Source of the DNA: Trichoplax adhaerens
Lineage: Eukaryota; Animalia; Placozoa
Direction: 5' to 3'
NCBI RefSeq assembly: GCF_000150275.1
Contig: NW_002060952.1
Coordinates: 1,734,313-1,798,312, forward strand
DNA length: 64,000 nucleotides
Below the pieces are notes generated by a model. That model was not told where the DNA came from, made no database searches, and saw only the letters and a program-made list of their open reading frames with translations. The translations under genes were made by a program, and so were the position numbers. Shown here one piece after another: positions 10,195 through 40,100 of this stretch (position 1 is its first letter; each line of letters begins with the position of its first letter).

Positions 10195-22740
<12,546 letters not shown>

Positions 22741-25180: not shown

Positions 25181-28100
25181 ATGGTGTTCTACTATCAAAG
25201 CACAGGTGAGAGATATTGCATTGCGAGAGAGCGCACTTCAAATAAACGTTTAGCGCCATCTTCCATTATAATTATTAGAGCATCTCGTTGTCTTGCAGAT
25301 TGATTGAAAGGACACCATGCAATTGACCTATAATTAGAATATTAAAACATACATTCCAATTGCTCTTAATGCCCTTACTATTACAGTACAGGCTCAACCA
25401 GGTGATCATAGTGACATACTGTACAGTAGATTAACAATGATATTTTATAACGTTAAAATATCCCTTTCTAGTAACATCATTGAAGTAGTGATTCCCATGG
25501 TAGAAGTAAGGTTTACAGTTTGCAAGAACTCTATTGATCATCAGGTTGATCGCTATTGGTTGATTCTGTGATAGTACCATACAGAAATTGAGCAACTTCA
25601 AAATGGACCCTTTTAATATTAGCAATGTTCTATGTACACTTAATAATACTGACTATATTAGTAGAAAAATCGACGTGAAAATGATCCATTCGCACAGGAA
25701 GATGATCGTACTGTAGGCCCTGGATGCCGCATTAAAGTAAAAATTAATTTTGGAAGTACTGAAATTATAACTAAGATACTATAACTTCTCATGTTATACA
25801 CTCAACATCATCAATTAACAGTGCACGCCTTTAATCTACTGTATTGAAAATTGTAATATTGAAAAGGAAATAGTTAATAATTATAGGCATATCTACTGTC
25901 ACGAAAGATTGGAGTTTACACAATAATTTATCAATTATAATCGTTCGTTTTTAATAATGTACTAACTATATATTAATAACAACTGTGATGATTAGCAATA
26001 GATCCATCGTGTACCATTTACGTTGGAAGAGATAAATATGAAAGTAAGTTTGATGCTCACCAATCCTCTGATTTTAATGAACTAAATGGTAGTCTAGCAC
26101 ATCCATGTCATAGAGCAATGATTTCTTTATGTTGTTCGTATACTTTACGTAACCTTATTGAAAGAGTTCTGTATTACGTGTATACTTATGAATTTTGAGC
26201 TTATAGCATGTATAGTAAACAGCTTATATATAATGATTAATACTGAAACTCTCATACGTGTTTTAGGCTTCTTTTACATCATTGTAATGTTGCTGTTTCT
26301 AACAAGAATGCAACATTGCTAGCGACCAGCTACAGTGTTTACAGTAGTTGTAACATCGCAAAACGTCAGCAGCCTCATCTAGTACAGTTTATGTCATTCA
26401 AAAAGTTATTCATAATATTTTATATGCTTACTGTATTAGCTCTTTTCTTCAAGCATAGCTTGAAAACCCTATCACACAATTGATATTGCAGCTAATTAGA
26501 CTTGTTATCACAGTGTGCGATAATAACCTCCCTTACTATTATACGTTGCTTTTCAAACTATAGATGAAGAATTATTAAAGTATGCTTTTGCGGAAGATGT
26601 ATGGTAGGGGTTTGGCTTAATTAATCTTTTAATTATCGCATAATATCTATTGACTTTTAATGCATGTAATTATGCAATAAAAAGTTTTACTAGGACTTAA
26701 TTTGAATTATTGCATCTGGTGAAGTTATAGAATCGATTTCTGTATACGACTCTGATTAGGTTTCACGTTGATAAATTGTCTTCTGCACATGTATACTTGA
26801 GGATGCCTAAAGTAAGTACAACACTTTCTGCTAAAGTATAATAAAGTAAATGATTTTTACTATATTAGAAGACATATGTAGATAGATAAGATGTTACAAA
26901 GCGATTGCATGTATCAAAACCCCAATTTTAACTTATCCGTTCTTTATTATTAAATACTTGTATATTAGGAGAAAATTTAAACCAATACACTAGAGATTTT
27001 TGTATTGTTGTAGTCAATACTTTATTTATTTAATGCTGCCAGAATATTTTATAACCCAAAGACAATCCTATTCGTTCTACAGTTAGTTTTTTATTCACTA
27101 CGCTCATGCAGCTGTATTATACTACGCCACATAACGCCAATTTATCTATACACACCACTGCTGTACTTTGTAACATTTACTGAAATATAGTAAATTACCA
27201 ACTCTAAGTAGCTCACTTGGTCAATGACTTAATGTAGGACATGTCAATCGATTCAATTCCAACCGCTTTGTTACATGACTGTGCACAGTTGGTCAAAGCA
27301 AACAGTATACAAGGTAATATTGGCAAGGTTACGTTTGCGCTACGATCTTACAATTTACTGCAAATCCAGAGATCTTCAAACAAGATATGTTTATGCGTTT
27401 TAATGTTGGCTTTTGTAGGTTGCAAACTAAACAATGTCAAAGTGGTTTACACACCAGCAAGTAACATTAAAAAAACCGCCGATATGGAAGTTGGCCAAGT
27501 CGGGTTCCATAAAAGTAAAGAGGTATGGGTCTTTATTTGAAGGGTTAATCATCGCTGTTACTGTTTGATTACTTGATACAGTATCCATAATTTATAAATG
27601 TAAATAAGGAAAAAACCATACTAATGAGATACGCGTATATATGTATTATAATCATACACTGACACTTGAAAGATAAAATAACTTGTCTTTACGCATAAAC
27701 TGCTTTCACAAGGCTCTCACAGTCTTGATTGATTACCCAGGTTCGACTAACTACCGTGGATAAAAAAGATAATGCAATTATAAATAGATTAAATAAAACA
27801 AAATTGGAAAAATACCCTGATTTAGCCGGCGAACTTCTACAGCGAGAGAAGGAGGAACGTGAGGAAAGGAAGCAATTACTAAAGGAGCAGGTTTGTGACT
27901 TTTAATGACATTTTCGTGTGTGTTCATGTGGCAAATATGCTATACTATGATTTCATAATAAAAATTAACGAATTTCGCTCTAGAGCAAAATACAAAAAGA
28001 AGAAATACTAAAGAGACAGCAGGAACAAGAAATAAGGTAATTGTCCTTGCTTGTCGTTCAATTGAATGTACAGCTTGAAAATGGTCGGCATGCCTTACCT

Positions 28101-29662: not shown

Positions 29663-31533
29663 TCACCGCTTCCTTTTAATCCCTGGTGACGAGGGTTGAG
29701 GAGTAGAAGCCTTAGCTCTCTTTCGTGCTGGTGAACTATCTATAAAGAAATAAGACAACGTTTACTGCTCATCTAATATGTGTTAAGCTGTGACATATAT
29801 TTTTCTAAAGAAATGAAACGAACTTTTTCTACTTAAGCCTATTGTTGTATAGGAAATTACTTTCTAGCTAATATGAGTGGGCAGACAATGATAATAAGCT
29901 TATACACTTACCGTCATCGACAATAGGAAGAGCACTCTCTGAGATGTAATCTTCCGGGAGTGAAAAGTCAACTTCTTCAGTTGGCATGGAATAAATCTCC
30001 ATTTCATCCTAAACAATTGCATATCAAAAGTACTTATAATAAAGTTTATATACACTCTGCTCTATAAGAGCCATACTTAGTATAACGAACACGTTCTACG
30101 GAGTACAGATATCGTAACAGTCATGGTAATTTTATGCTAATGACGTTGCTACCGCAGGAGATATTATTACAAGTACATTGCTACTCGATATTAATTAAAG
30201 TATAATGTTAAGTAATAAGACCAAAGCTCTAGCAATATTTACAGTTGTAAGCTTGTTACTACTTATAAGATCGATAGTAATTATCCTTGTCAATAAATGT
30301 TCCACTTTTCAATATCTTGCAAACGATCACGATTTCTATGCAGTACCAAACGGAAAATAATTGTATCATAAGTTCATACTTACCAATGCTGCAAGATCAT
30401 ACAGAGTATTCAAATGATCCCATACAGACTTCACAGATAAGTTTTCTCCTGTTAATTCTTGAAGGCGTTGATGAATAAAAGCCATTTGAAAATGTTTATG
30501 AACTCCTACAAAGTGGTATTATTTATTTACAGTTTAGTAATGTAGCTCCTTGGATTAATTGTAATGCAGGTCTGCCCAGACATAACCAGATATTGAAAAT
30601 AATAATAATAATATAATAGCACCATTTAGAAGATTTTAAGAATGAAGTCCTGCTCGCAATCATTTGTAAACAAGGCCATACTGCCCATGTAGCAGTACAC
30701 AATCAGTGTAATCTATGGTGGAATTTTCACCGAATAGTAAGTCTTACAAATACCGTTAGAAGATAGAATTTAAAGTAAAAGCCTTCACTTGGGTCAGACA
30801 CTTGCACATTAAGTTTTGTATTTTGAAGGCACCTTTTACACTATACGCGGGCTGTATCATGAATATAATTTACTATAGATTCATTCTAAATTGAGATGTG
30901 TTGAACATACAGTCTGATGCAGACTACATCGAAGTATATCACGTACTTGCCATAAATTAAGACTAGAAAGAGGTCAAAGTTAACGATGACGATAATACTG
31001 TAAGGACTCTGCAGTGCTCTTATTTAGAGCTCGAGGAAATTATGTCTTAGATTTTATTGTACTGTACTATACTAATGGCAATGTCTATTGAAGGTATAGC
31101 AACTCATGGGGGTGGAAATACTGCACACAAGCCCAAGTCCTAGAGAAAGTGACTGCATACTATCTATGATCATTTGAATATCGACACTAAATTATGGTTA
31201 ACAGCAGCATTCCGGCGAGCCTTGGAACAGTGAAGTGCATTAGACAGTAATGGAAACGTTCAGCCTCTACGTTCAGGGAAACATTCATCAATTTACTGTC
31301 CCGTACAGTATCCTCAGCGTGTTGTACAGTACAATAACTGTACATGCCAATTTCGGAAGTTCAAAGGCCTTGCCTTTTTTTTAACTTGTTAATATACGAT
31401 AATGCCATTGCATTAGCTTTCGAATGTTGGAAATTCGAGCTCTAAAAACTCGCTTACCTACTGGCTTGTGTCCTTTCATTGCTCTAAAGAGTTTAACTTC
31501 CATATCTGCTGTCCACGTTGCCTCGGTGGCCAT
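29663..31533 (-). CDS. MRGBP: MRG/MORF4L-binding protein (Eaf7, NuA4/TIP60 subunit), 4 exons, 123 aa
   Basis: Exons 31533-31458, 30505-30384, 30008-29912 and 29739-29663 give MATEATWTADMEVKLFRAMKGHKPVGVHKHFQM...VWDHLNTLYDLAALDEME...FSLPED...KRKR*, matching the Eaf7 motif W...E..LF.AM.GHKPVG...HF.M and WDHL..YD. Missed by the ORF track. Confidence 0.93.
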
Positions 31534-31651: not shown

Positions 31652-32276
31652 ATGTACTGTAATACGAGAAAACTTTCTTTGCTGAATTTGCTAGAGTTAC
31701 AGTACTGTGTTATGCTGTACATTGTACTGTACACTGTACTGTACAGTCGGAAGAGTTGGCATTTAGTTGTACTGTACTGTACGTATGGTACAGACGTACA
31801 GACTACAGATTTTGCAGCACAATTGTACAGTACTGTAATGTACGAGTTACAGTACAGTACAGTACAAATACAGTACAGTACAGTACAGTACAGTGTACAG
31901 TACTGTACAGTACTGTACAGTACAGTACTGTACTGTACTGTACAAGTCCCTGGTTACAGTACAGTACTGTACTGTACTAGTGTACTGTACGAGTGTACGT
32001 ATGGTACAGACGTACAGACTACAGATTTTGCAGTACAGTACATTGTACAGTGTACACTGTATACTGTACAGTTGTACTGTACGAGTTAAAAATATTAACA
32101 GTCGGTAAAGCGTGGTACAGTATACTGTACAGTACTGTACTTTACACTGTACATAGTGTACTGTACATGCAGGATACTAGCAACAGAATTTATATAGAAT
32201 TGTACCTACTGTCTGCGTACAGTGTACAAATAATCTAATACAAGGAATATTGTACTGTAACTGTACTGTACAGTAC
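31652..32276. repeat. Large (TACAG/CTGTA)n array in the MRGBP / NUUM-like divergent promoter
   Basis: ~620 bp built almost entirely of TACAG and CTGTA units with strand switches at AGTACT/TGTACA palindromes. It contains an internal direct repeat gtacgtatggtacagacgtacagactacagattttgcag at ~31779 and ~31995. Confidence 0.9.
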
Positions 32277-32369
32277 GGCCGTATGGACAACGCGGTGTTG
32301 CCACAATTTCATTCTTGCTCCATCTTGTTTTGGAAAGGAAAAGAGTAGAGCTACGTTTTGTTCAATAAA

Positions 32370-33712
32370 ATGGTTCGTATCGTATTCTTAATGTAGGATG
32401 GATCAATTTAGGGATAGCTATAAGCACAGTATACGTATAGCATTAAATCCATTCTCAATGCTAGACCGTGAAATATTGTATCATCATCAAATCAAATAAT
32501 CTTTTTTGAACATATTCTCAGAAACTGCTAAAACGCGTATTTCAATTAATTTAAATTATAGGGGGGTGGCGGAAAAAGATTCCCTTACCCACAGTACGTC
32601 TGGTCACCAGCTGGTGGATGGTGGTGCAATCCTCGTAATTGGAAGCGTAATACTGCTCTTGCTACTGTAGCTGTTATTGGTATCTGTATGCCTGCGTTCT
32701 ATTTGTCGGCATCCCGTGAAGTAAGGACTGCAGTAATCGATGTTTAACTTAACATTAACATAGGGTTACGCTAGATCAGGACCTTTTTGCAGCTTAGTTT
32801 GATCTCATTTAAAGTAGTATTAGCAAGAAGTATTTTATTGTTTAGACTCTTAAATTATAACTATTGGGTTCAAGTTGAATAGACAGACCAATGATAGCTT
32901 TATACCGTATCCTGTGCTAATGGGATTGATCCTAGCCTAAATTATGTCTATCAAATTCGTCAATTATATTATATAATATTGATAGAATGTAATCTATGCG
33001 AGTAACAATTTCCTGAACAAGCGCAAACGTTGGAATATCAACCTTATTCATGACTTTTAATCCTTGACTTATTTACTTCATCCCAGCTACTGTAGTTATT
33101 CCAGTAATGTGACCACATACAACTGATGCCAGCACCGTACTATATCCCATGTATCACATGCAAACGTATAGTTTTAAGGTCCCAACTTTTAAATAAAAAT
33201 TGCGCCCCTCTTAATATTTATTTCTACCACAATTTCCTACTTACATCAGCAATATCTGCATGTTATACGCGTATACAGTATTTGCCTTGCGATTCTACGT
33301 TTCCAGCATAAATGTTTACGATGCACTTACGGTACTGAATGCAATTGAATGATGATTAGATATGTGATAGAAAAGGTACTTTTTTAACCGTATCGAAGAA
33401 TCCTGATTCATCATTTCTGGTGTGCATTATCAATAAGTACAGTGACGATATTGTATTCTTTGAAGTATTGAATGATATGTTTTTTACACCTTCAGCGAAT
33501 GGTACAACAACCTTACAGGCACGTTTTGTCCCAGAAATTTGCAAGGCATGCTAAGGTAACAAATATTTGTTGTATGTCATAGACTATACATAAGGGAGCT
33601 CAATAAAATTTTTGCATTAACGTCTTAACTTTTTTATGGTTTTATTGCCTATTTTTACCATCAGGAAGACGATCCGAGCTTGCCAGATTCTCACAGAGTA
33701 TTCAAATGGTAA
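32370..33712 (+). CDS. Small single-TM protein resembling fungal/protist complex I accessory subunit NUUM, 4 exons, 89 aa
   Basis: Exons 32370-32372 (ATG only, context aaaaATG|gt), 32562-32720, 33496-33555 and 33665-33712 are all phase 0 and GT-AG. They give MGGGGKRFPYPQYVWSPAGGWWCNPRNWKRNTALATVAVIGICMPAFYLSASRERMVQQPYRHVLSQKFARHAKEDDPSLPDSHRVFKW*. The motif PYP..VWSPAGGW..P.NW..NTA + TM helix + S..RE is recognised from fungal/oomycete proteins. The gene model is well supported; the NUUM name comes from recall. Confidence 0.85.
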
Positions 33713-34198
33713 CTATTTTACGTTATGATTTTAAATGGCTACCTTGTTCGCTATAACAGCTGCCTACTTTCAAATTTGGAAAAGATTTCATCCTGCAATA
33801 TCAAGAAGTTTTATTTTACATTTGCTTATACGTACTGTTAAATATAATGTGGTGAAATTTGCTGTGAAGTTCATGGGAGACCTTCAACGGTTCTTGAAAC
33901 TTATTTCAAATTCGTCTTTGAAATTATGGCAATAGATTATATTCTTAAGTAACTTTTATTTCGTAACCTGATGGTTACACTTCATATGTACAATACATTT
34001 TATATATACGTATATATTTACAATAAATGGCTTTACACAAGGTCGCTGTCAATTCTCATTCATGTAAGTCACACACCTTACAAACGTAGTACAGCTCAGA
34101 ATAGCTCAACACACAGACCACTGCAAGTACATAGGCTGTAAGCAACCAAAGATATATTCAAGATACGCATATATACAGTATCAATTTGCTGGCAAAAT

Positions 34199-37100
34199 CT
34201 ATTTATTTGAAAGACTTTCAATATTTAACATCACTTGTAAAAGTTGACTCTTTTTGGATTTAATATCTTCATCTAATCGTTGGAGTTCGGCTTCAATATC
34301 TGATGTACTCATTTCCGCTATATTGTTGTGTTTTCTTCGGTGCCTACTCTTATGGTGATGGCGGTGTTTTCTACGTTTTTTTTTATTTCTTCCACGTTCT
34401 ATAAAAGAATACAATTGCAAATCAGTTAGTCTTTTTTAACTCTATTAAATGCACCAACTAAATGTATATTACTGTGATTGCAGCCAACCTTTTGAAGCCG
34501 ATGGTGAGGAAACTCGTTGATCGAAACTGTTATTGCCTACAGTTTCTAATTGAGCTCTTCGATCGACGCTATGCCTTCCTGCCGATATCATTTGGCTACC
34601 AGAGTCGATAGATCTAGTAGTTTGATTTCTGAAATAAATAGGAAATGTATCAAGAAGTTTAGTGTAACAATTTTTCCTTTCATAGACTAATAACTATCGT
34701 ATCTATTTACATATTGCACTGTACTACAATATAGTCCTATATAACAACTGAGTTGGTCCCAAGATTTACAAAGTTACCAGGCATAGCGGATATAAAAATT
34801 TAGCGGCAGGTAAAAGGCAGTTGTAACTATAACCACGAACTATTTATAATTTTAATAGTCCGTGCTAGAACTCATGCCTCGCATAACTAAATGATTATTA
34901 ATCAGTCGATCCCTCGCTCGTTATACTTTGCGTGTATCACGAACTATTTATAATTTTAACAGTCCGTACTAGAACTCATGCCTCGCATAACTAAATGAGT
35001 AATAACCAGTCGATCCCTCGCTCGTTATACTTTGCGTGTACCAACTGTGTTACGTATACCTTTTACTAATTTATAAGTTATCACTGACTCACTACACGCT
35101 AAGCATATTTATTACTTCCATATCTATCCCATAGACCAGTCGCCAGATTTTCTAGAATGATGCGCATTATTTTTAAATAATATGAATTACATATCAGGTA
35201 CGATCTCAATAAAATGTATTATACAAGTTATTAAGACTGTAGTATATGCAAAGGCTAAAATTGAGCTATCAGCAGTGGAAAGGGAAATTCTATTTTATCA
35301 ACTAAGAGAGGCAGGATATTACGTTCGCGAAGGTTAAAACTATAAGGAAACATCTCGATTCTAGAAGTTCCAGCCAAAACTCTCACCTATCTACAGATAT
35401 TGTACTAGATTATTTAGACCGTATTATGCTCATTATAGTACTAAACATAATTTACTGACAGAAAGCACAATATTACAACAATGTCGCAGCGGCAATATTA
35501 AATTTAGAGGTTCATTGGTAAACCACAAACCAAGTGCTAGCAGTTAACATGACAGTCATGAATCTTGAATTCTTGATAGAACTAAGTAAACATCGGTAAG
35601 TAGCAGAACTGCTAGTAATGAGCCTTGCATGATATCACTTGTCACTACAGTCATCTTATCGTTTATGCACTAATATGTTAATATACTGTGCAGCACTATG
35701 AACTAGGTATCTACAAGTCTATGACAGTACAGTGGTACTCACCAGCATTATGCAGTGTTGAATAATGTATCACATCACAGCTTATTGATATGCAAGTATT
35801 TCTAACTTCCTATCCTCAGTCTACGCGTATAAACTAGCATTGTCTATTTAACATAGTGGCACAACAAAATGTCTAATAATGTACAGTATTTTTGTTTAAC
35901 AAAAGTTGAAATTTAGAAGTATCTAACTATCGCAATCATAAAGTCCTTAGTGAGTACAGTATACTGTATGTGTCACGTCTGTAGCTCTTGGATAACAGTA
36001 ATTCATTCGCAGGAACTGGTGCAATATTTTAATAATTTCGTGGAGTGCAGTGTAGCAAATACACATACTGTACAAGTGTACAGTAGTATTCTTTAAAATA
36101 CAGCCGAAAAAAGTACTAATTCAATCACAGGCTAGTCATTTACTAATTGTAAGCGTGAATAGCATCAGATAATAATTTATATCTACGCTTTGCAACTCTC
36201 TGAACAGTTAATACGGCGTCATGATTCATTCGTAGTAGAAGCTAGAAATTACAGAATATAGTATAATTTCTAGAAGTGCATGGTCAGTTAATAAAGCAAC
36301 TACGTGACTCATCAACGCGACGTTTACTGAAAATGCATCACGTGTATTGCAAGTACGAACCTTGTATGATCTTCACTGGAGCTATTACTGGCTTGATCCG
36401 ACGATGTTTCGCTATGATTGATTATTGGTGAATCATCTAATTCTGTACGACTCAAAGCAGCCATCTGTAGCCTTTGCGAAGATTGCTCTTGATTATCTTC
36501 AGTATGACTTTCGCTTTCCTCTCGCCTTGGATTTTCTAATGGTACAGTATAATCCACAGCACCGAAAGCTTAGAGAGTCGAATGTGTGTACTGTACTGTA
36601 GTACAGTAGACATTAGGGTATGTGCACAGTGTACAGTACCCTGTGAAAAGTATATACTGTAAGCAGAGCCGAAAAATACTGTACTGTACTATACGCTCGT
36701 ACTATGTAAAAACTTTAAATACTGAATGCCAACTACAAATGAACTGGCTGCAACTCCGAGAATTTGTAATTGATTTACGTTTATTTTCTTTTCAGACTCA
36801 GAAAAAGGGAAAAAATATTACTAAAACTAACGTCAAATTATAGACTTCTACAGTAGTCTGCATGCATGTGCTCAGTCAGAGTACAGTAAAGTACACTGTA
36901 CGTATGATACTGCACTTCGTCCGGTACAACTTTTACTGTCCAACGTGCAGTGACAGTATGTACGCAAAACACCACTGTAAGGTGGTAATGTACTGTACTG
37001 TACATTGTACAATAGGCAAGTAAATGGCTCACTTATTAATGGTTAAGAAGAAACAGTAGGGTAGCAGCAACGCATAAAATAAATAAATAGAATATTATAC

Positions 37101-40100
37101 GTATATCATATAAATCTGAACTGTGTCGCAAACACTACTGTACATAGTTCATTTAATAATTATAATTAGCAAGAAACAGTAGGTTGTCAGCAGCACAAAA
37201 TATTATACGCGTATTCGTATACGAGTATACGTACACGAATAAATCTCAACTGTGTAGAAGTCTACATTACTCAGACAGAAAATCCTTAGTACTATACTAG
37301 CTTAACGTTCTGTCGATTCGCCAACAGAAATAACATAGTTCATAATATAATGATTACAGCTCTTCAGCTCTACTGCAAGATAGGCAAATATAGCGCCGAT
37401 AATGATGTATATAATTAATTAATTATAAATAAATGGAGAGGAGAATGGATAGAGATCATAATTATAGAAGTTGAATAGCTTATAGTTAATAACATATATA
37501 TCGTATATATATAGTCATAAATTATACAAACAGTACAGTACTTACCATAATTTTCAGGGGCAACGTAATCATACCGCGCAATCTTATCATACGTGAACAT
37601 ATCATACGGCGACCTTGCAAAATTCACAAATTCGTGTAAAAAATGATTCGTTTTCTCATATAGGAAATGTGATAACTGTTCACGAAATTCATCTGATAGT
37701 ATATCGACTCTAAAATTGAAAATTAAAACAAAAAACTTAAGTATAGCAGGGAGTATACTTTCCGTAGTATGCAAGCCACACGACAGCGAATGGATAAATT
37801 CTCTATGCATAAATCAATATCATTTTTTAATTCGTTACAGTAGTACGCAAACGTATTTATCGCATGCTATAACAGACACCCCACAAATTCCAGCATAGTA
37901 TACTTGTATAGTATACTATAATCAAACGCTCTCATTTCTGGTACGTGTCCATACTCAAAGTATCCACATTGAGTATGCAACTTACTTATATATAATAGAT
38001 AAAATTAGCTGTCGAATAAAGGCAGCATCCCCACTATTCCCAAGGACGACGTTTAATTCGCGACTAATCCAAGGAATAAGGCGGTGAGTGCAAGCAGGAT
38101 TCCTTCTAAAGAATTCAGGTGCTATGAAAAAGAAAATTTATTGCAATTATAGCAAATGCATCGATAATTTATTCCTGAAATCACTTAGATACGCAAGGCA
38201 GAAAGCATTCGTAATTTACAACAAAAGCAATAATTACTCGACGTAAAATTTACTTACAAATATCTCTATATTTGGTTTTACCATTACTAGCCACTCCCTT
38301 TACCCATAAGGACGCGGCATAAATTGCCCTAGGTAAGTTCCGATCGATTTACAATTGTTCAATATGGTATTCTGTATGCATGGCAAAAATTAAGAGCAAA
38401 TGCATCAAATCTATACTTTCTTCTCTCCAATGATCTTAGATAAATTGGTTTCCTTCTCGTTGACGTAGAACCCCACTGAGAGTATCTAGAGGAGGAAGCA
38501 TTGCCATTGACACCTGAAGTGCGGCTGGAACTAGATTGTTGGTGTCGCACGGGCCGACCTGATGTCATAGTGGTCCTATAGCGAAATCTGTTAACAAGAT
38601 ATAGTGTTATAACTTTACGAATTATGTTAACAAGATATAGTATTATAACTTTACGAATTATATATATATTACTTTGTTGCAAATATTATTTATAATAATT
38701 CGCGTAGTTCAATAAGACTTTAATATTACAACAGTTTGTTATTTGCTACTTTTGCACTAAATCGTAATATTCTAAATCCTCAAAGTATAAATTGGTACGT
38801 CAGTCTAAGAGCAACTAGACACTTTTGATACCGCCAAACAGCTGCATAAATATAAGATCAAAATTTCTGGAAGACCATTTTATGCAAATAAAGTAACATT
38901 CACTCAATAAGAAATACAGTAGTATAATCTGATTAGAGATAATGTTAGATTGACTTGAAGAATCTTGGCATATTTAAAGTTAGTAGCTAACAACAATAAA
39001 TTTACTCTCAGCTTGTTTAAATGATGATTGCGTCCTGGTTAATTAGAATTTAATTAATCCAATTTATCAGGTGATAGTGAAAAGTGAATATACTAGTTAG
39101 TCATAAAGGTGTATCGGCTGAGAAGGTTGTAAATCTAATATAGATATTGGATTACGCTTAGTCCGGATATTAACCTGTTGTCTAAACGGAAAGCTCCATC
39201 GTCAATGACCTCTTCTTTCTTTTTATCCGATTGCGAGAGTTGATACTATTAATAATTAAAACAAGCGAATTTTTAAATCTGCTTAAATATCAATTGCTAC
39301 AATTTGCACTACAATCACGCAACAGAATTATATTATATCTAACTTAACATGATATTTTCCGTAATCAATACGTATTTAAATATTGACAGCGTTAAAAGTT
39401 AAAAATCGCACTTAAGAGAGTAATGCTAATGTTATTTCCGTAATGTGAAACACATTGCAAGTTTGCAATATCAAATAACACTTTTGACTTTGTAACAATT
39501 CCAAGCAAATTAGGACCATGTTTATCTGATCTACTTTACGGCTACTGTAGATTTCAAATTATAAAAATTTAACTCTAAATCCAACTTCCTACTAAGCGTT
39601 ACTATACAGTCAAACAATTACCAAATGTATATATACTACGAGCAAGTACTACGATGTATTTCAACAACAGTCTAAGGCTATTAGCAGGCATACCATTTGA
39701 TAATCTTTGTCCGACTTTACCGTATGGATGATAGTCGTAAACTCCGATTTGCACAGAGGACACGTTTGTACAACTTCAGACCATTGTAAGATACAATAAA
39801 AGCAGAAAGTATCTATTTCCTAATTAAGGTGTTAAATAACATACTAAATAACTGAGCAATAATACTACTTTTAATGATACATACGTAGATTTATGTTCAA
39901 GCTTATTCCCCCCAAATATGATTACTCGACGGAAGCCAGGCAGCAGATAGTTATTGGAGAAACTTAAACTTTCTAATCTCTAGCCGACTGTGATATTGCC
40001 ACTAATCTGCTTATAGTAGCTGAATCATTTGCTTATGTGAATATCAACATATACATATCACATGAATACAATTTTGTTACCAGTGTATACTACTTGGTAA

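What the first reader, a model, noticed from the sequence alone, without database searches (positions are those of the whole stretch)
32370..33712. Hidden fungal/protist-type complex I subunit (NUUM-like) in an animal genome
Seen: a clean 4-exon, 89-aa gene absent from the ORF track, with an ATG-only first exon and one TM helix. Recall: the motif MGGG..FPYP..VWSPAGGW..P.NW..NTA belongs to a small family I know from fungi and protists (Yarrowia/Pichia NUUM), not from bilaterians. I recall structural work placing NUUM at the NDUFB6/B17 position. Inference: early-branching animals kept the ancestral eukaryotic form of this subunit, which diverged strongly in bilaterians. The host-like introns and promoter argue against contamination.
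Basis: partly seen in the sequence, partly recalled or inferred. Interest (0 to 1): 0.8.

Follow-up and report, generated by a model that had tools for sequence, protein, structure and literature searches.

The report
Placozoan keeps ancient complex I subunit
This is a real, spliced gene for a small membrane protein of the family that sits in respiratory complex I of fungi, plants and protists; it is also present in sponges, corals, jellyfish and choanoflagellates, so these animals likely keep the old form of a subunit whose site in bilaterians is probably held by NDUFB6, a protein with no detectable likeness to it.

Summary
The four-exon, 89-residue gene is real. All three introns are spliced out in transcript contigs, and an unnamed model from Trichoplax sp. 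H2 is 87/89 identical, so the window is probably Trichoplax and the gene is unnamed rather than undiscovered. It belongs to the NUUM family: its solved relatives are complex I chains of Chaetomium (E 8e-16), plants, Yarrowia, algae, Pichia and Euglena. Orthologues, all unnamed, occur in corals, an anemone, jellyfish, sponges, choanoflagellates and an ichthyosporean. None of the 40 organism-named rows among the best 120 of 499 hits is bilaterian. This narrows the printed statement that NUUM was lost early in animal evolution (PMC7050145). Whether non-bilaterians also carry ordinary NDUFB6 stayed untested, and Cardol 2011, which may already list them, could not be read. New member of a known family.

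The parts
32298..32369 (+). 5' untranslated part of exon 1 (furthest 5' contig end seen; true start not known)
   Evidence: X7 contig starts at 32298, X8 at 32304, X19 at 32337 and splice to exon 2
32370..32372 (+). coding part of exon 1: the ATG alone
   Evidence: sequence; joint in X7, X8, X19
32373..32561 (+). intron 1, 189 nt, GT-AG, phase 0
   Evidence: skipped in 3 of 8 runs
32562..32720 (+). exon 2, 53 codons: Gly-rich start, the WSPxGGW and NWxxNT motifs, the transmembrane helix, the conserved Glu
32721..33495 (+). intron 2, 775 nt, GT-AG, phase 0
   Evidence: skipped in 6 of 8 runs
33496..33555 (+). exon 3, 20 codons: start of the C-terminal coil
   Evidence: 52% identical to the Acropora orthologue; RNA contigs
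33556..33664 (+). intron 3, 109 nt, GT-AG, phase 0
   Evidence: skipped in 6 of 8 runs
33665..33712 (+). coding part of exon 4, 15 codons and TAA, with the DDP motif
   Evidence: 56% identical to the Acropora orthologue
33713..34031 (+). likely 3' untranslated region, AATAAA at 34022
   Evidence: only AATAAA/ATTAAA between 33700 and 34400; X19 contig ends at 34031; other contigs run on into the convergent neighbour

Best explanation
The window holds an intact, spliced gene for an 89-residue single-helix protein of the NUUM family, which is likely built into the membrane arm of this animal's mitochondrial complex I as a structural subunit, probably at the site that NDUFB6 holds in bilaterians. 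Shown: gene structure, splicing, family membership, and orthologues in choanoflagellates, sponges, a placozoan and cnidarians. Inferred from solved relatives: it is a complex I subunit, imported without a cleavable presequence (Pichia NUUM loses only its Met). Inferred from the NDUFB6 naming and the description of mammalian NDUFB6: N-terminus in the matrix, helix against ND5 lining the lipid pocket between ND4 and ND5, C-terminal coil in the intermembrane space against ND5, NDUFB10 and NDUFB7, with a role in joining the distal membrane modules during assembly and none in catalysis. Inferred history: inherited vertically from early eukaryotes and kept in non-bilaterian animals; in the bilaterian stem it was either remodelled beyond recognition into NDUFB6 (about 55% within this reading) or replaced by it (about 35%), or the two are separate subunits (about 10%).
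For: Nine of the ten solved chains returned for the Trichoplax H2 protein have E 5e-4 or better and all ten are complex I chains (complex names for the plant chains); profiles of the family return the same ten. A predicted model of the Acropora orthologue (pLDDT 82.5, one long helix 27-52) retrieves only such chains in Foldseek (4 of 4 rows, E 8.5e-3 to 3.8e-2) and as the top four of 48,161 in VIA (Z 5.1 to 3.4). Highest identities are to corals (59-64%), against 40-51% for ten fungi. Gene-caller read-through peptides imply introns at the same places in a choanoflagellate (introns 1, 2), an octocoral (1, 3) and basidiomycetes (1). NUUM was found in purified Pichia and Yarrowia complex I (PMC2953923, passages). 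NDUFB6 role and 'structurally conserved across eukaryotes' from PMC8762328 (passages).
Against: No protein-level evidence from any animal that it is in complex I. The fold scores are low (Z 5.1 is within the range of chance helical matches). The NDUFB6 site is known here only from chain names; Parey 2019 states that NUUM has no mammalian equivalent and lists none, and algal chains are named KFYI. No homology to bilaterian NDUFB6 was detected. Trees of 85-88 columns do not resolve the animal sequences as a clade. The bilaterian absence rests on the best 120 of 499 hits, two thirds of them without an organism name.
Confidence: 0.85

Rival explanations
1. NUUM and bilaterian NDUFB6 are unrelated: an animal-born protein took over the site in the bilaterian stem and NUUM was lost (replacement, not divergence). 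This shares the best explanation's function and differs only in history.
For: hhalign Prob 0.8%, E 0.07, and the matched pieces lie on opposite sides of the helix; 17 of 40 block-shuffled controls score as high; an animal-plus-choanoflagellate profile does no better, colinear score beaten by 82 of 100 shuffles; neither profile finds the other family in the PDB up to E 10; 0 of 68 family members hit PF09782. NUUM itself is slow: 59-64% between placozoan and corals.
Against: The tests are weak for this kind of protein: a protostome NDUFB6 profile finds mammalian NDUFB6 only at about E 1e-6 and a protostome model finds it at E 0.74, so NDUFB6 changes fast; Drosophila and mammalian NDUFB6 differ visibly in structure (PMC9977279, passage). 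Both are single-helix proteins said to share a site.
Confidence: 0.3
2. Non-bilaterian animals carry both a NUUM gene and an ordinary NDUFB6 gene, so the two are separate subunits and NUUM was simply lost in bilaterians.
For: PMC7050145 lists NUUM and NDUFB6 as separate subunits and gives NDUFB6's range as Holozoa (passages); Parey 2019 gives NUUM no mammalian equivalent.
Against: All 22 organism-named rows among the best 120 of 395 hits to an NDUFB6 profile are protostomes, but not even vertebrates reach that list, so it says little. Four depositions name the NUUM-type chain NDUFB6.
Confidence: 0.1
3. The protein is the distant orthologue of animal NDUFC1 (KFYI), as Cardol 2011 proposed for NUUM.
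For: Algal chains 9f5x_Z and 7ar9_c are deposited as KFYI; the proposal is cited in PMC7050145.
Against: The same paper says it was disputed; PMC8762328 says NDUFC1 analogues are absent from Yarrowia and plant complex I; no Pfam hit and no animal NDUFC1 chain in any PDB search.
Confidence: 0.03
4. The gene is a contaminant or a recent transfer from a fungus, alga or protist.
For: Trees do not recover the animals as one clade; one test rejected it (p-AU 3e-5), and placing Trichoplax with fungi was not rejected (p-AU 0.17).
Against: The rejection counted unnamed rows and a jellyfish row (named later) as non-animal; with named rows only, one animal clade is not rejected (p-AU 0.22). The gene lies among intron-rich genes at uniform GC, is spliced in runs of five studies, exists in a second Trichoplax assembly and is closest to corals.
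Confidence: 0.02

Closest known systems
NUUM of Yarrowia lipolytica (6rfq_i) and Pichia pastoris (9iho_i); Chaetomium 'NDUFB6' (7zm7_i)
   Same: Same length class, Gly-rich start, WSPxGGW and NWxxNT motifs, one helix, C-terminal coil; E 8e-16 to 3e-7.
   Different: In an animal; the C-terminus ends in the DDP motif shared with cnidarians, sponges, choanoflagellates and stramenopiles and absent from the fungal rows. Not shown in the complex.
Plant and algal subunit named NDUB6 (8e73_C1), 'transmembrane protein' (7aqw_c) or KFYI (7ar9_c, 9f5x_Z); Euglena NDUFB6 (8iuf_B6); Tetrahymena NDUB6 (7tgh_B6)
   Same: Same family by profile (E 4e-25 to 7e-5) and the best fold matches.
   Different: Named inconsistently; some carry N-terminal extensions.
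Bilaterian NDUFB6/B17 (Pfam PF09782)
   Same: Single-helix accessory subunit said to occupy the same site (chain names; PMC8762328).
   Different: 128-220 residues with a conserved matrix-side block that this protein lacks; no detectable sequence, profile or fold link.
Unnamed orthologues RDD37933.1 (Trichoplax sp. H2), XP_032230070.1 (Nematostella), KAK2570001.1 (Acropora), A0A1X7UGN9 (Amphimedon)
   Same: Same gene: 87/89, 52%, 61% and 55% identical.
   Different: All labelled hypothetical or uncharacterized; no Pfam family covers them.

Membership tests
NUUM-type complex I subunit | significant sequence match to solved NUUM-type chains | tested here: met
   exon 2 alone E 7.5e-15 to Chaetomium chain, 8.6e-10 to Yarrowia NUUM; full H2 protein E 7.7e-16
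NUUM-type complex I subunit | N-terminal WSPxGGW and NWxxNT motifs, conserved Glu after the helix | tested here: met
   invariant or near-invariant columns; present in the window protein
NUUM-type complex I subunit | one transmembrane helix, about 75-125 residues, no cleavable presequence | tested here: met
   89 residues, hydrophobic segment 33-51; helix 27-52 in the Acropora model; aligns from residue 3 to residue 2 of the Chaetomium chain
NUUM-type complex I subunit | fold like the solved chains | tested here: inconclusive
   top rows are all family chains but scores are low: E 8.5e-3, Z 5.1, rmsd 4.2 over 76 residues; model is of the Acropora orthologue
NUUM-type complex I subunit | physically present in complex I | not testable with these tools
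   shown for Pichia and Yarrowia, not for any animal
Bilaterian NDUFB6/B17 (PF09782) | match to PF09782 | tested here: not met
   no Pfam hit for the window exon, the H2 protein or, for this family, any of 68 relatives; positive control 7 of 7
Bilaterian NDUFB6/B17 (PF09782) | matrix-side helix with the invariant Arg, Asp-Gln-x-Leu, Glu-Pro block | tested here: not met
   block invariant in 35 protostome rows, absent from the window protein and
Bilaterian NDUFB6/B17 (PF09782) | remote homology by profile or fold | tested here: inconclusive
   none detected, but controls show low power
Bilaterian NDUFB6/B17 (PF09782) | same site at the ND4/ND5 interface | not testable with these tools
   no superposition of assembled complexes available; sources disagree
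NDUFC1/KFYI | match to animal NDUFC1 by Pfam or solved chains | tested here: not met
   no profile-profile test against NDUFC1 was run

The most novel reading that the evidence does not exclude
Animals have two kinds of complex I. Sponges, placozoans and cnidarians keep the old eukaryotic membrane arm with NUUM, and the bilaterian stem swapped it for an unrelated protein, NDUFB6, at the same site, as part of the remodelling that also shortened ND2 and removed NUXM. 'NDUFB6' in fungi, plants and protists would then be a misnomer and mammalian NDUFB6 a bilaterian invention.
Probability: 0.3. Interest if true: 0.7.

Novelty: new member of a known kind. Interest (0 to 1): 0.42.

Why it matters
It names a conserved, unannotated gene family in all sampled non-bilaterian animal groups except ctenophores (not seen) and moves the loss or transformation of NUUM from 'early in metazoan evolution' to, probably, the bilaterian stem. 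It gives the disputed question of what NUUM corresponds to in mammals (NDUFB6, NDUFC1 or nothing) a sharp test: sequences on both sides of one branch of the animal tree, and tractable animals (Nematostella, Trichoplax) whose complex I has not been examined in the papers seen. It is not a new kind of system, and retention of an ancestral subunit in these lineages is in line with the full-length ND2 outside bilaterians (PMC9977279).

Tried and rejected
No genome was held for the window, so a second NDUFB6-type gene in this animal could not be sought. Pfam gave nothing for the family. The ESM Atlas placed the coral proteins near unnamed fungal and plant clusters (0.94-0.96) and, among named ones, near clusters with 11-17% NDUF_B4; PF09782 was not among the rows shown; treated as leads only. 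An apparent shared N-terminal Gly-Gly-x-Lys motif between protostome NDUFB6 and animal NUUM, noticed after the fact, ranked only ninth among window pairs and was dropped. The best-scoring pair (a Trp...Gly-Gly-Trp stretch) lies before the helix in one family and after it in the other and does not beat shuffles. The NDUFB6 model did not list NUUM-type chains in 13 Foldseek matches or the 50 VIA rows shown, nor the NUUM model any bilaterian NDUFB6; absence there is not evidence. The first tree's rejection of an animal clade was confounded by unnamed rows; the second left out the 16 rows without an organism name; neither resolves the base. The NDUFB6 homologue list was cut at 120 of 395 and never reached vertebrates. 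No complex prediction was sent, as no partner sequence from this animal was in hand. Literature searches that found nothing on animals: NDUFB6 + complex I + Trichoplax, NDUFB6 + Nematostella, non-bilaterian + accessory subunits + NDUFB, NDUFB6 + NDUFC1 + plant complex I; some searches gave only the papers cited or unrelated listings. Cardol 2011, Ligas 2019 and Grba and Hirst 2020 are not held. Earlier scan notes: nothing relevant.

Full report
Observation. The sequence holds the gene as described: plus-strand exons 32370-32372 (ATG only), 32562-32720, 33496-33555 and 33665-33712, three phase-0 GT-AG introns of 189, 775 and 109 nt, 89 codons, and one hydrophobic segment at residues 33-51. Eight of 22 listed runs were laid on the region. 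Intron 1 is skipped in 3 of 8 (two studies), introns 2 and 3 in 6 of 8 each (five studies); X6 and X17 show no joint. One contig of X19 covers all four exons without mismatch and ends at 34031, nine bases after the start of the only AATAAA in the region. These are assembled contigs, only X7 and X8 are on record as RNA, and low-depth contigs also cover intron 2, so expression level and strand are not shown. The C-terminal part of the Acropora orthologue picks out exons 3 and 4 from the whole window.

Source. The window's exon-2 peptide clusters with RDD37933.1, a hypothetical protein of Trichoplax sp. H2, which has the same 89 residues with two substitutions. The window is therefore probably a Trichoplax genome (inference), and the gene model is already in GenBank without a name. 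GC is even across the window and neighbours are intron-rich genes.

Family. Exon 2 alone and the full H2 protein match complex I chains from Chaetomium (7zm7_i, named NDUFB6, E 8e-16), Vigna (NDUB6), Arabidopsis, Yarrowia and Pichia (NUUM), two algal chains (KFYI), Euglena (NDUFB6, E 5e-4) and, only by profile, Tetrahymena (NDUB6, E 7e-5). No bilaterian chain appears up to E 10. Pfam has no model for the family. A model of the Acropora orthologue (pLDDT 82.5) retrieves the same chains first, with low scores. The family is large: 790 representatives at 50% identity.

Range. An animal-weighted profile found 499 proteins, of which 120 were listed; 40 of these carry an organism name, seven are animals (Acropora, Stylophora, Nematostella, Paramuricea, Rhopilema, Amphimedon, Ephydatia) and none is bilaterian. 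Cluster look-ups add Montipora, Porites, Pocillopora, Oculina, Sanderia, four more choanoflagellates beside Monosiga, and Chromosphaera. All are unnamed proteins. No ctenophore was seen. Since the profile leaned to animals and bilaterians fill the databases, a conserved bilaterian copy would be expected near the top; a diverged one could hide among the 379 unlisted or 80 unnamed rows. Identity to the placozoan protein is 59-64% for five stony corals, 52-61% for the other four animals, 49-57% for stramenopiles and 40-51% for ten fungi. Trees do not resolve the base: an animal clade was rejected when unnamed rows were counted against it and not rejected with 29 named rows (p-AU 0.22), where grouping with fungi was not rejected either. 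Read-through peptides suggest old intron positions: of 276 family proteins (redundant, including near-copies) 62 have Gln where the start Met would be and 78 break off at a Val after the conserved Glu, as splice sites read in frame would give; named cases are Monosiga, Paramuricea, Porites and two basidiomycetes. This is inference from peptides, not from DNA.

Relation to bilaterian NDUFB6. A short recalled motif fetched 38 metagenome loci; 32 looked like NDUFB6 by eye and 7 of 7 tested matched PF09782. From these came 395 homologues, the best 120 all PF09782 and all 22 organism-named rows protostomes. Profile comparison of 57 NUUM-type with 35 protostome sequences gave Prob 0.8%, no better than shuffles (17 of 40); a profile of 19 animal, holozoan and animal-like rows did no better (82 of 100 shuffles as high). 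The fold of a protostome model did not list NUUM-type chains. These negatives are weak, because the same protostome profile and model find mammalian NDUFB6 only at about E 1e-6 and E 0.74.

Mechanism. By family it is likely a non-catalytic subunit of the distal membrane arm. NUUM was identified in purified Pichia and Yarrowia complex I, mature after loss of Met only, with one predicted helix (PMC2953923, passages). If the NDUFB6 naming holds, the description of mammalian NDUFB6 applies in outline: matrix N-terminus, tilted helix bounding the lipid pocket between ND4 and ND5, intermembrane-space coil on ND5, NDUFB10 and NDUFB7, needed to join the distal modules (PMC8762328, passages). These steps are inferred, and the matrix helix of mammalian NDUFB6 has no counterpart here.

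What is in print. [quoted passage not shown] PMC6905873 (passages, supplement hits) says NUUM has no mammalian equivalent. [quoted passage not shown] PMC9699679 (passages, supplement row) names the Chaetomium chain NDUFB6 by adopting human names for all but NUXM. PMC9977279 and PMC10036122 (passages) note the bilaterian ND2 truncation, the loss of NUXM and a different NDUFB6 structure in Drosophila. PMC12699882, PMC8290278, PMC9873571, PMC10884005 and PMC11950790 were searched by term and added little; one scanned supplement each of PMC7050145 and PMC10884005 could not be read. No paper found mentions NUUM in a non-bilaterian animal, but Cardol 2011, a database survey that may list them, and Ligas 2019 were not held, and the wording 'lost early in metazoan evolution' may itself reflect such knowledge.

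Verdict. A real gene, securely a member of a known pan-eukaryotic family, unnamed in animal databases. Its value is the clean boundary it suggests at the base of bilaterians and the test this gives for the origin of NDUFB6. Interest 0.42; the replacement reading (probability 0.3) would deserve 0.7.

Noticed in passing
window 31384-31533, minus strand: A gene starts head to head about 840 bases upstream; its first exon looks like MRGBP/Eaf7 (recalled; Pfam gave no hit).
   Followed up: partly
window 31715-32270: Degenerate array of a 5-base unit (GTACA, 29 copies at 31825-31977) between the two divergent genes; similar repeats occur elsewhere in the genome, as loose contig ends show.
   Followed up: partly
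window 34199-39819, minus strand: Convergent multi-exon gene with a RING-like exon near 39661-39819 and a basic tail, resembling Topors (recalled, not confirmed); one of its introns (34399-34488) is spliced in two runs, and contigs run continuously from the NUUM 3' end into it, so the 3' ends may overlap.
   Followed up: partly
window about 11200-20700, minus strand: Many-exon gene with carbamoyl-phosphate synthetase-like and dihydroorotase-like exons, probably CAD (recalled; Amidohydro_1 hit at 13604-13870).
   Followed up: partly
window 27238-27537 plus; 224-733 minus: An NFACT-R_1 exon (CCDC25-like, recalled) and a single-exon C-type lectin domain.
   Followed up: no
window 34834-35040: Two tandem copies of a 104-base unit, 95% alike.
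   Followed up: no
P0415: A 388-residue unnamed protein clusters with a 56-residue coral-like exon-2 fragment; fusion or assembly artefact.
   Followed up: no
PMC8762328; PDB 8e73_C1, 7ar9_c, 9f5x_Z: Naming is inconsistent in print: the review equates NUUM with NDUFB5 in one sentence, and one protein family is deposited as NDUFB6, KFYI, NUUM or 'transmembrane protein'; it has no Pfam model.
   Followed up: partly
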